Positions 45,475 to 47,809 of a stretch of DNA of 64,000 bases are shown piece by piece. Within the stretch, counting starts at the first letter, position 1. Each line of letters opens with the position of its first letter. Below the pieces are notes generated by a model. The model had not been told where the DNA came from and ran no database searches. It worked only from the letters and a program-made list of their open reading frames with translations. Source of the DNA: Escherichia coli (GTDB lineage: Bacteria; Pseudomonadota; Gammaproteobacteria; Enterobacterales; Enterobacteriaceae); the NCBI RefSeq assembly GCF_003991155.1, contig NZ_CP031295.1, one strand, 5' to 3'. The position numbers were made by a program, and so were the translations under genes.

Positions 45475-46035
45475 ATGACAGAGCAGAAGCGACCGGTACT
45501 GACACTGAAGCGGAAGACAGAAGGGGAGACGCTTGTCCGCAGCCGGAAAACCATCATCAATGTCACCACGCCACCAAAGTGGAAGGTGAAAAAGCAGAAG
45601 CTGGCCGAGAAAGCAGCCCGGGAAGCAGAGCTGGCGGCAAAAAAAGCGCAGGCCAGACAGGCGCTGTCCATTTATCTGAATCTGCCCACGCTGGATGATG
45701 CCGTGAACACCCTGAAGCCCTGGTGGCCGGGATTATTTGACGGTGACACGCCCCGGCTTCTGGCCTGCGGTATCCGGGACGTGTTACTGGAAGACGTGGC
45801 GCAGCGGAATATCCCGCTCTCGCATAAAAAACTGCGCAGGGCGCTGAAGGCCATCACCCGTTCAGAAAGCTATCTGTGTGCCATGAAAGCCGGTGCCTGC
45901 CGGTATGACACGGAAGGGTATGTGACGGAGCATATTTCTCAGGAGGAGGAAGCGTATGCGGCAGAGCGTCTGGATAAAATCCGCCGCCAGAACCGGATAA
46001 AGGCAGAACTTCAGGCCGTGCTTGATGAGAAATAA
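45475..46035 (+). CDS. finO: FinO fertility-inhibition RNA chaperone (intact)
   Basis: 186 aa from [14 protein letters not shown]...; basic N-terminus; not interrupted by an IS, unlike F as I recall it. Confidence 0.9.
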
Positions 46036-46169
46036 AAAAAAGCCTCCATCAGAGAGAGGAGGCAGGGAAATAAGGCTTAAAAGGAAATAACTTCCGTACC
46101 CGAAAGGAAGCCAGTCCACTGAATTATTTACCACAATAATACTGACGACTAAAAGGGAGGGGCAGAAAA

Positions 46170-46382
46170 ATGAATGGATTCAGAAACAGTTCACGGAACG
46201 GTCAGGTCTGGCGTTACCAGCGTGCCGGCGGGCGGGCCGTTATTCTGGAGGTCAGTGGACGCTGGATGGAAGCGGCAGAAGCATGGCGACGGGCTGCCTG
46301 TGTTACGCCCCGGACAGACTGGCAGCAGTTTGCCCAAAAAAGGGCTGAACACTGCCACCGGCGCTGCCGGGGAAGGGGGTAA
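46170..46382 (+). CDS. hypothetical protein (70 aa, Cys/His-rich C-terminus)
   Basis: ORF with strong RBS AAGGGAGGGG 8 bp upstream; no family recognised; an overlapping 87-aa ORF in another frame (46174-46437) is the alternative. Confidence 0.35.
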   Translation: MNGFRNSSRNGQVWRYQRAGGRAVILEVSGRWMEAAEAWRRAACVTPRTDWQQFAQKRAEHCHRRCRGRG

Positions 46383-46771
46383 CGAAAAAAGCAGCCTTCA
46401 TTACACCAGAAGTCAGAAGGCTGAAAGGAGTTTATGAGATTTGCTTTTTTTAGTTTCATCTTCATACCTTATTGGGTGTATTAAAAACAGTAGGCTGCCA
46501 AAGTTTTAAACAAGTTTCAATTCTCCATGACTGCTCAGCATCAGCCAGAGGGAATTCCCATTCTGGACCAGCGGGAGCATACGAATAATAATTTACGGGT
46601 TTCCCCGCTCCCGGCGTTTTTGTAACAAAAACAGGCAAATGGGGGTAATAGTCAGCAACAGGGAATGTGGTATTATCGCGGCGGGTGTCTGAGCCTTTCT
46701 GGTTCAGGCAAGACGCAGGTACCAGAAATGCGAAGACCCCACTCGTTAATCCATTAACTCGTGAGGTCTGC

Positions 46772-46978
46772 ATGAAGTACCTTAACACTACTGATTGTAG
46801 CCTCTTCTTTGCAGAGAGGTCAAAGTTTATGACGAAATATGCCCTTATCGGGTTGCTCGCCGTGTGCGCCACTGTGTTGTGTTTTTCACTGATATTCAGG
46901 GAACGGTTATGTGAGCTGAATATTCACAGAGGAAATACAGTGGTGCAGGTAACTCTGGCCTACGAAGCACGGAAGTAA
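46772..46978 (+). CDS. srnB: SrnB/PndA-type Hok-family type I toxin
   Basis: 68 aa MKYLNTTDCSLFFAERSKFMTKYALIGLLAVCATVLCFSLIFRERLCELNIHRGNTVVQVTLAYEARK; antisense RNA expected on the opposite strand around 46700-46780 (not delimited). Confidence 0.8.
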   Translation: MKYLNTTDCSLFFAERSKFMTKYALIGLLAVCATVLCFSLIFRERLCELNIHRGNTVVQVTLAYEARK

Positions 46979-47589: not shown

Positions 47590-47690
47590 CAGGGAACTGG
47601 TTCTGATGTGGATTTACAGGAGCCAGGAAAGTGAAAACCCCGATAATCTTCTTCAAGTTTGGCGACTAGAAAGATTATCGGGGCCCCATA
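47590..47690 (-). ncRNA. copA: putative CopA antisense RNA
   Basis: inferred by position in the repA1 leader; contains an inverted repeat ccccgataatcttc...gaagattatcgggg that could form the major stem-loop; ends not determined. Confidence 0.45.
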
Positions 47691-47734
47691 AAACCACATA
47701 GCCAACAATTCAGCTATGTGGGGAGTATAGTTAT

Positions 47735-47809
47735 ATGCCCGGAAAAATTCAAGACATCTTTCTGTGCTCACTCCTTCTGTGCATTGTAAGTGCAGGATGG
47801 TGTGACTGA
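47735..47809 (+). CDS. repA6: Tap/RepA6 leader peptide (translationally coupled to repA1)
   Basis: 24-codon [27 protein letters not shown] whose TGA overlaps the GTG start of repA1. Confidence 0.7.

What the first reader, a model, noticed from the sequence alone, without database searches (positions are those of the whole stretch)
46170..46437. Unassigned small ORF with a strong RBS between finO and srnB
ATG 46170 is preceded by AAGGGAGGGG and opens a 70-aa ORF ending in a Cys/His-rich tail (...AEHCHRRCRGRG). An overlapping 87-aa ORF in another frame (46174-46437) is the alternative. Neither matches a family I recognise.
Basis: seen in the sequence. Interest (0 to 1): 0.3.

Follow-up and report, generated by a model that had tools for sequence, protein, structure and literature searches.

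The report
finO-linked ANR small regulator gene (yigA)
The small ORF is a real protein-coding gene that RefSeq already annotates as an ANR-family (Aar-like) anti-activator. It sits directly after finO on thousands of F-like plasmids, its 3' end is overlapped by a known antisense RNA, and its role on plasmids has never been tested.

Summary
ATG 46170 follows AAGGGAGGGG (46153-46162) and opens a 70-codon ORF ending at 46382, between finO and srnB.

The ORF is not unassigned. It passes the NCBIfam model NF033650 (ANR family). An identical plasmid record names the same CDS "ANR family transcriptional regulator". It is probably the old "yigA".

The 70-aa frame has dN/dS 0.30 (CI 0.19-0.44) and no stops in 11 alleles. 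The 87-aa frame has dN/dS 1.46 and 13 stops.

The protein is 8.2 kDa with pI 11.6. It is predicted to form three helices and keeps the ANR signature residues. The Cys/His tail is not conserved apart from Cys62, the family cysteine.

The finO-ANR order holds in alleles down to 40% identity, even though FinO stays far more conserved.

The minus strand at 46462-46279 is a full-length match to Rfam AS-pc02 ("antisense to pHK01_099"). Here its first ~20 nt differ and its usual upstream DNA is missing.

The likely mechanism is protein-protein inhibition of AraC/XylS activators and/or H-NS. This is inferred from Aar and Rnr and was not tested. The gene is ordinary as an annotation, but its function on plasmids is an open question.

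The parts
46153..46162 (+). Shine-Dalgarno sequence AAGGGAGGGG, with 7 nt between it and the ATG
   Evidence: Read directly. A purine-rich GGAGG/GGGGG/GAGGAG block is kept 7-10 nt upstream of the start in 12 of 13 alleles, including ones with only 40-47% protein identity.
46170..46382 (+). CDS for a 70-aa ANR-family protein (probable yigA): 8.2 kDa, pI 11.6, three predicted helices
   Evidence: ORF. NF033650 scores 33.1 bits against a cutoff of 32. PGAP annotation of the identical DNA. dN/dS 0.30 with bootstrap CI 0.19-0.44 and 0 stops in 11 alleles. AF2 helices 7-29, 32-45 and 49-67 at pLDDT 78. Gap-free alignment to Aar places the signature residues in register. MW and pI.
46174..46437 (+). 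Overlapping 87-aa ORF, rejected as a gene
   Evidence: dN/dS 1.46, 13 in-frame stops over 11 alleles, and no family hit.
46279..46462 (-). Copy of the antisense RNA AS-pc02 (Rfam RF02876, 'antisense to pHK01_099'), overlapping the last 104 nt of the CDS and its 3' flank
   Evidence: cmscan gives 156.1 bits (gathering 40), E 1.6e-40, model positions 1-185 of 185. The same family is found at the same place in 9 related loci. The first ~20 nt differ from the consensus. Homology to pHK01-type plasmids stops at ~46452, so the usual upstream DNA is absent here.
46302..46383 (.). Long imperfect palindrome inside the 3' third of the CDS, forming the core stem-loop of AS-pc02
   Evidence: The minus strand folds at -42.6 kcal/mol (z -4.4) and the plus strand at -40.4 (z -3.4). 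No compensatory changes occur among 10 alleles, so covariation gives no support.
46392..46423 (.). 8-bp hairpin just after the stop codon, preceded by an A-run on the + strand and so followed by a T-run on the - strand
   Evidence: L011 carries a change on both sides of the stem (CAGCCTCC...GGAGGCTG).
46042..46063 (.). Hairpin immediately after finO, with its T-run only on the minus strand
   Evidence: z -4.1. There is no U-tract on the + strand, so read-through from finO into the ANR gene is plausible. This is an inference.
45475..46035 (+). finO (context), the conserved upstream neighbour
46830..46978 (+). Hok/Gef-family toxin gene (srnB type; context)
   Evidence: The Rfam sok-region hit lies at 46683-46841.

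Best explanation
46170-46382 (+) is a genuine protein-coding gene. It is the finO-linked small gene of F-like plasmids, probably the old 'yigA'. It encodes a 70-aa, very basic, three-helix protein of the ANR (AraC Negative Regulator; Aar/Cnr/Rnr) family. It is translated from ATG 46170 using the GGGAGG Shine-Dalgarno sequence. It is probably transcribed together with or just after finO as the last gene of the transfer region.

By analogy with Aar and Rnr, it would not bind DNA itself. It would instead bind other regulators: the linker region of AraC/XylS-type activators and/or H-NS-family silencers. That binding would damp or re-tune their activity. The plasmid carries no annotated AraC-family gene. 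The targets would therefore be host or co-resident regulators, or H-NS, which is known to silence F tra promoters.

The opposite strand carries a copy of the antisense RNA AS-pc02 across the 3' third of the gene. In other plasmids this RNA could control the gene's mRNA. In this window its own 5' end and upstream DNA have been replaced.

Shown here: coding frame, family membership by profile, signature residues, predicted fold, synteny, and the antisense RNA homology. Inferred: co-transcription with finO, binding partners, the effect on the host or on transfer, and any role for AS-pc02.
For: Coding frame: dN/dS is 0.30 (bootstrap CI 0.19-0.44) with 0 stops in 11 alleles. pN/pS is about 0.4 both in the half overlapped by the antisense RNA and in the half that is not. 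The Shine-Dalgarno sequence is kept across alleles.

Family: NF033650 scores 33.1 against a cutoff of 32. All 24 members of a diverse homologue alignment hit the same model, with a best E-value of 1.2e-13. The identical DNA is annotated as ANR family.

Signature residues: a gap-free alignment to Aar from pAA of EAEC 042 puts A23/E27/A35/W39/A42/F54/R58/C62 opposite Aar A14/E18/A26/W30/A33/W45/R49/C53. Santiago 2016 (PMC4983702) reports that A14, E18, A26 and W45 are required for Aar activity.

Fold: three helices are predicted, as described for the family.

Synteny: four alleles at 40-51% identity still lie directly after finO on the same strand. In one of them the gap is only 43 nt, which implies co-transcription.

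Mechanism of characterised relatives: Aar binds the AggR linker and blocks DNA binding (PMC4983702). Aar binds H-NS (PMC5570504). Rnr shares 25% identity with Aar, is interchangeable with it, and binds H-NS and Ler (PMC10148876).

Transcription: the gene called yigA between finO and the yigB nuclease in pS88 was quantified by qRT-PCR (PMC3438092).
Against: The HMM score is only 1 bit above the cutoff, and several close alleles are labelled 'hypothetical protein'. Identity to Aar is about 20%, and the hhalign probability against the single Aar sequence is low. Position W45 of Aar is F here. The protein is far more basic than Aar (pI 11.6 against 8.5), so it could bind nucleic acid instead.

No AraC-family partner is annotated on the identical plasmid, although the PLSDB gene table is incomplete. 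No sigma-70-like promoter was found upstream.

The gene is dispensable in some plasmids. F itself has a 64-nt internal deletion and L012 has frameshifts.

No experiment on this subfamily was found in the literature searched.
Confidence: 0.7

Rival explanations
1. An ANR-fold protein with a different job from Aar. Its finO linkage and extreme basicity (pI 11.6) would fit a nucleic-acid-binding or FinO/FinP/TraJ-related modulator of conjugation, rather than an anti-AraC or anti-H-NS factor.
For: Position strictly after finO down to 40% identity. 15 Arg+Lys against 5 Asp+Glu. No AraC gene on the plasmid. The allele series is hypervariable next to a 96-98% conserved FinO, reminiscent of plasmid-specific regulators.
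Against: The residues needed for Aar's protein-protein function are kept. No nucleic-acid-binding family or fold was hit.
Confidence: 0.18
2. The conservation belongs to the antisense RNA AS-pc02 and its palindrome, and the ORF is fortuitous.
For: Full-length Rfam hit on the minus strand. A very stable stem-loop lies inside the 3' third of the ORF. Synonymous divergence is lower in the overlapped part (pS 0.166 against 0.261).
Against: Purifying selection is frame-specific and equally strong in the 5' half, which the RNA does not cover. The ORF and Shine-Dalgarno sequence persist in alleles that cannot be aligned at DNA level and that have no AS-pc02 hit over the gene. The ORF hits a protein family HMM.
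Confidence: 0.04
3. A decaying remnant under relaxed selection, with no function on this plasmid.
For: The F plasmid copy has an internal deletion and L012 has frameshifts. Many C-terminal length variants exist in the protein database. The third-codon-position excess of variable sites is only moderate (24/30/49).
Against: dN/dS 0.30 with a CI well below 1. The copy here is intact. The main 70-aa cluster has 1313 member sequences. The position is conserved across distant alleles.
Confidence: 0.07
4. The 87-aa ORF (46174-46437) is the real gene.
For: It is open in this window and could share the same Shine-Dalgarno sequence.
Against: dN/dS 1.46, 13 stops across 11 alleles, and no family hit.
Confidence: 0.01

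Closest known systems
Aar (AggR-activated regulator) of EAEC 042 pAA, and the ANR family (Cnr of ETEC, Rnr of C. rodentium/EPEC); NCBIfam NF033650
   Same: Small size (<10 kDa) and three predicted helices. The conserved A/E/A/W/A/aromatic/R/C pattern aligns without gaps. The gene is carried on a mobile element of Enterobacteriaceae.
   Different: Only about 20% identical to Aar. It has F where Aar has the essential W45. It has an extra conserved 14-residue N-terminus and is much more basic (pI 11.6 against 8.5). It is not near an AraC-family gene, fimbrial operon or dispersin/Aat locus, and is instead fixed downstream of finO in the transfer region. Binding partners are untested.
AS-pc02 (Rfam RF02876), antisense RNA to pHK01_099 of IncFII plasmid pHK01 (Jiang et al. 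2017, FEMS Microbiol Ecol 93:fix090; the citation was seen but the paper was not readable here)
   Same: Full-length covariance-model match on the strand opposite the ANR gene, covering its 3' third and downstream hairpin.
   Different: The first ~20 nt deviate from the consensus. The DNA upstream of the RNA start in pHK01-type plasmids is replaced here by srnB-side sequence: about 750 bp present in F are missing. Expression in this plasmid is therefore uncertain.
yigA, a 'conserved hypothetical protein' of F-like plasmids (e.g. pS88097 in pS88)
   Same: Same slot between finO and the yigB nuclease or repA2 region (one search compared).
   Different: The identity is inferred from gene order only. 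The pS88 sequence was not fetched.
Hha/YmoA-family modulators carried by F-like plasmids (hha-type gene two genes downstream in many relatives)
   Same: A small plasmid-borne protein expected to act by binding a nucleoid-associated or regulatory protein rather than DNA. In many plasmids it lies in the same variable block: ANR, thermonuclease, hha, DUF2726.
   Different: No sequence relationship was found. This window has no hha gene. The functional parallel rests on background knowledge and was not tested here.

Membership tests
ANR (AraC Negative Regulator) family | Score at or above the curated cutoff of the family profile NF033650 | tested here: met
   33.1 bits against a cutoff of 32, E 3.7e-8, profile positions 1-51 of 54. 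All 24 diverse homologues hit the same model. The margin is narrow.
ANR (AraC Negative Regulator) family | Small protein (<10 kDa) | tested here: met
   70 aa, 8218 Da. The criterion comes from PMC4983702.
ANR (AraC Negative Regulator) family | Three alpha-helices spanning the protein | tested here: met
   The AF2 model has helices 7-29, 32-45 and 49-67, mean pLDDT 78. This is a prediction only.
ANR (AraC Negative Regulator) family | Signature residues A10, E14, A22, W26, A29, W43, R47, plus the conserved Cys | tested here: met
   A23, E27, A35, W39, A42, R58 and C62 are present in register with Aar. W43 is replaced by F54, an aromatic residue that is W or Y in other homologues. That is 6 of 7 exact, plus the Cys.
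ANR (AraC Negative Regulator) family | Accompanied by an AraC/XylS-family partner (nearby in EAEC and ETEC) | tested here: not met
   No AraC-family gene is annotated anywhere on the identical 108-kb plasmid (the table is incomplete). The host chromosome is unknown. Any E. coli host has AraC-family proteins, so the looser 'same genome' criterion is trivially satisfiable.
ANR (AraC Negative Regulator) family | Binds AraC-family linker and/or H-NS, and represses the partner's regulon | not testable with these tools
   This needs two-hybrid, pull-down or complementation experiments.
AS-pc02 antisense RNA (RF02876) | Covariance-model score above gathering, over the full length | tested here: met
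   156.1 bits against 40, model positions 1-185 of 185.
AS-pc02 antisense RNA (RF02876) | Lies antisense to the finO-distal small ORF | tested here: met
   Minus strand 46462-46279 overlaps CDS 46170-46382 by 104 nt.
AS-pc02 antisense RNA (RF02876) | Conserved 5' end and upstream (promoter) DNA | tested here: not met
   The first ~20 nt differ. Homology to L004 and F ends at ~46452. The promoter-like sites seen in L004 lie beyond that point.
AS-pc02 antisense RNA (RF02876) | Transcribed as a discrete RNA | not testable with these tools
   This needs Northern blotting or RNA-seq on this plasmid.

The most novel reading that the evidence does not exclude
The finO-linked ANR gene, with or without its cis-antisense RNA AS-pc02, is a plasmid-encoded regulator. 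Through it, F-like plasmids would re-tune H-NS silencing and/or host AraC/XylS regulators such as GadX/GadW, Rns, AggR and VirF. That would couple plasmid carriage or transfer to host stress and virulence programmes. Its allele series is hypervariable: 40-96% protein identity beside a FinO that can stay 96-98% identical. This would reflect diversifying selection for partner specificity. It would then be the most widespread ANR gene known (4768 of 72,556 plasmid records) and is so far unstudied.
Probability: 0.25. Interest if true: 0.55.

Novelty: already known. Interest (0 to 1): 0.3.

Why it matters
The annotation question is closed. The ORF is a known, named family member, and the antisense RNA is in Rfam. 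What remains open is biological. ANR proteins are known only as virulence anti-activators in diarrhoeal pathogens. A 2025 paper (PMC11773190) states that why mobile elements carry them is unresolved. This gene sits at a fixed place at the end of the transfer region in about 6.6% of all plasmid records searched (4768 of 72,556). It is under purifying selection and it diversifies rapidly. If it binds H-NS or AraC-type regulators, it would be a general route by which resistance and virulence plasmids reprogram their hosts or their own transfer.

Tried and rejected
- **Family scans.** Pfam found nothing for any of the four overlapping ORFs, and PADLOC found nothing. PHROGs gave only an unknown-function family, phrog_2227.
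- **PDB sequence search.** It returned only designed TPR and TIM proteins at weak E-values. This hints at TPR-like helices but finds no solved ANR structure.
- **Fold search.** Foldseek against PDB gave nothing at E<0.25. The best matches are TPR- or MIT-like three-helix units. The AFDB library was unavailable.
- **Promoter scan.** No sigma-70-like site lies upstream of the ORF.
- **Cys/His tail as a metal site.** Rejected, because only C62 is conserved.
- **Minus-strand ORFs.** The 83-aa and 55-aa ORFs are rejected: dN/dS is 0.9-1.5 or the frames carry many stops.
- **Covariation in the AS-pc02 core hairpin.** There are no compensatory pairs among 10 alleles, so the test is uninformative.
- **Intergenic hairpin 46091-46106.** It is not more stable than shuffled sequence.
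- **Sources I could not obtain.** The pHK01 record, the Jiang 2017 paper, FN554767 under that accession (NC_017627.1 was used instead), the supplement with the ANR alignment, and contigs for P0125.

Full report
**Observation.**
- AAGGGAGGGG occupies 46153-46162.
- ATG 46170 opens a 70-codon ORF ending at 46382, with the product ending ...AEHCHRRCRGRG.
- A second ORF in another frame runs 46174-46437 (87 aa).
- finO ends at 46035, and the Hok/Gef (srnB-type) gene begins at 46830.
- ORFs of this length are common here on all six frames, so the ORF alone means little.

**What the databases already say.** Megablast of 46040-46470 finds 4768 plasmid records.
- These are mostly Escherichia, Klebsiella, Shigella and Salmonella.
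- 3680 of them are predicted to be conjugative.
- The 100% identical record NZ_CP037904.1 carries a CDS at exactly this place, WP_001541896.1, named "ANR family transcriptional regulator". It lies between FinO and the Hok/Gef gene.
- The 70-aa product passes NCBIfam NF033650 (ANR_neg_reg) at 33.1 bits against a cutoff of 32.
- The 87-aa product and the two minus-strand ORFs hit nothing in Pfam or NCBIfam.
- In pS88 the gene between finO and the yigB nuclease is called yigA, and its transcript was quantified (PMC3438092). By gene order this is the same gene, which is an inference.

**Which frame is coding.** I aligned the region from 12 related plasmids.

| Frame | dN/dS (pooled Nei-Gojobori) | Codon-bootstrap CI | In-frame stops in 11 intact alleles |
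|---|---|---|---|
| ATG 46170 (70 aa) | 0.30 | 0.19-0.44 | 0 |
| ATG 46174 (87 aa) | 1.46 | 0.90-2.62 | 13 |
| Third + frame | 0.99 | 0.61-1.65 | 15 |

- The minus frames all carry many stops.
- pN/pS is about 0.4 in both halves of the gene.
- A purine-rich Shine-Dalgarno block is kept 7-10 nt before the start in nearly every allele.
The gene is real, and the 87-aa alternative is rejected.

**Family membership.**
- A profile of the plasmid alleles, searched against 1.84 billion representative proteins, recovers small proteins down to about 30% identity. They share A..LE...G.(W/F/Y)..AA..W..A..AP...W..(F/W)A..RA..C.
- All 24 sequences of that alignment hit NF033650, with a best E-value of 1.2e-13.
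- I fetched aar itself from pAA of EAEC 042. The profile aligns to it without gaps. A23/E27/A35/W39/A42/F54/R58/C62 fall opposite Aar A14/E18/A26/W30/A33/W45/R49/C53.
- These are the family's published signature positions. A14, E18, A26 and W45 are required for Aar activity (PMC4983702), and the cysteine is the family's conserved Cys (PMC4038620).
- AlphaFold predicts three helices at pLDDT 78, as described for the family.
- Identity to Aar is only about 20%. However, Aar and Rnr share 25% identity and are interchangeable (PMC10148876).
- Among H61, C62, H63 and C66, only C62 is conserved. The "Cys/His tail" is therefore not a motif.

**Differences from characterised ANRs.**
- Known ANR genes lie near an AraC-family activator with fimbrial and dispersin/Aat genes (PMC4038620; pAA map).
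- This gene is fixed directly downstream of finO.
- Four alleles at 40-51% protein identity still sit there on the same strand, one with a gap of only 43 nt.
- FinO can remain 96-98% identical while the ANR protein drops to 47-76%. In L019, DNA homology stops just inside the end of finO and resumes in the 3' flank of the ANR gene. The CDS therefore behaves as a hypervariable cassette between conserved flanks.
- The identical plasmid has no annotated AraC-family gene, although the PLSDB table is incomplete.
- The protein is very basic, with pI 11.6 against 8.5 for Aar.
- More distant homologues occur in other contexts.

**The other strand.**
- Rfam finds a full-length match to RF02876, AS-pc02 "antisense to pHK01_099", on the minus strand from 46462 to 46279. 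The score is 156 bits against a gathering threshold of 40.
- The match overlaps the last 104 nt of the CDS.
- Nine related loci carry it at the same position.
- Its core is a long imperfect palindrome (46302-46383). This folds at -42.6 kcal/mol with z -4.4.
- Among 10 alleles the stem shows no compensatory changes, so covariation neither supports nor contradicts it.
- Synonymous divergence is somewhat lower in the overlapped part.
- In this window the first ~20 nt of the RNA differ from the consensus. Homology to pHK01-type plasmids and to F ends at ~46452, and about 750 bp present in F are missing. The RNA's native upstream DNA is therefore absent, and its expression here is uncertain.
- The original paper (Jiang et al. 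2017) could not be read. Its citation was seen.

**Transcription of the gene.**
- No sigma-70-like promoter was found upstream.
- The hairpin after finO (46042-46063) has its T-run only on the minus strand.
- Together with the 43-nt gap in L019, this suggests read-through from finO. This is an inference.

**Mechanism.**
- Aar binds the central linker of AggR and other AraC/XylS proteins and prevents DNA binding (PMC4983702). It also binds H-NS and modulates silencing (PMC5570504). Rnr binds H-NS and Ler (PMC10148876).
- The best-supported model for this protein is the same kind of protein-protein anti-regulator. Host or co-resident AraC-type regulators and/or H-NS would be the targets.
- No experiment on this subfamily was found.
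- I put about 0.9 on "real ANR-family gene" and about 0.4 on the specific mechanism.

**Verdict.** The finding is a correct observation of a gene that is already annotated, and the antisense RNA is already in Rfam. Novelty is "already known". Interest is low to moderate. It rests on the uncharacterised role of a very widespread plasmid ANR gene, not on any anomaly.

Noticed in passing
L027:1561-1749 (F plasmid NC_002483.1): The classical F plasmid carries this gene with a 64-nt internal deletion, equivalent to window 46299-46362. The deletion removes helix 3 and most of the AS-pc02 hairpin and leaves a 62-aa 'hypothetical protein'. In F, an IS3 element lies where finO is expected and no finO CDS is listed (the PLSDB table omits pseudogenes). 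F may therefore lack both functions.
   Followed up: partly
window 46452/46453: Recombination or deletion junction. About 750 bp present in F (L027 1770-2518) are absent here. In other relatives the same spot holds thermonuclease, hha and DUF2726 genes, or a PIN-domain gene. The block after the ANR gene is highly variable.
   Followed up: partly
window 46042-46063 and 46392-46423: Both hairpins flanking the ANR gene have an A-run before them and no T-run after them on the + strand. They therefore look like terminators for leftward (minus-strand) transcription rather than for finO or the ANR gene.
   Followed up: partly
L019:3935-4280 compared with window 46010-46386: The ANR CDS cannot be aligned at DNA level (47% protein identity), while the adjacent FinO is 96% identical and the 3' hairpin region is 89% identical. 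This is an allelic cassette between conserved flanks.
   Followed up: partly
window 46683-46841 (+), 47629-47717 (-), 47630-47757 (+): Rfam hits to the sok/srnC-region family (94.5 bits), to the CopA antisense RNA (92 bits), and a sub-threshold PK-repZ-like pseudoknot (35.8 against 44) in the repA leader.
   Followed up: no
L017:1925-4201: A 41%-identical ANR homologue (P0128) sits just after a PAPS-reductase/DUF3440 gene and a ParB_N gene, next to fimbrial genes and not on an F-like transfer region.
   Followed up: no
window 46170-46382 (protein level): The ANR profile and the single sequence both pick up TPR-type repeats. These include designed TPR proteins in the PDB, a 1044-aa protein with 17 matching stretches (P0137), and Tom70/71 and MIT domains by Foldseek. 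The ANR fold may be about 1.5 TPR units.
   Followed up: no
window 46170-46382 (protein level): The protein hits PHROG family 2227 (unknown function, E 4.5e-8), so ANR-like proteins also occur in phages.
   Followed up: no
L014:47670-48995 (NZ_CP037904.1, outside the window): rclA is annotated between IS26 and IS1 copies, with no AraC-family rclR gene listed beside it.
   Followed up: no
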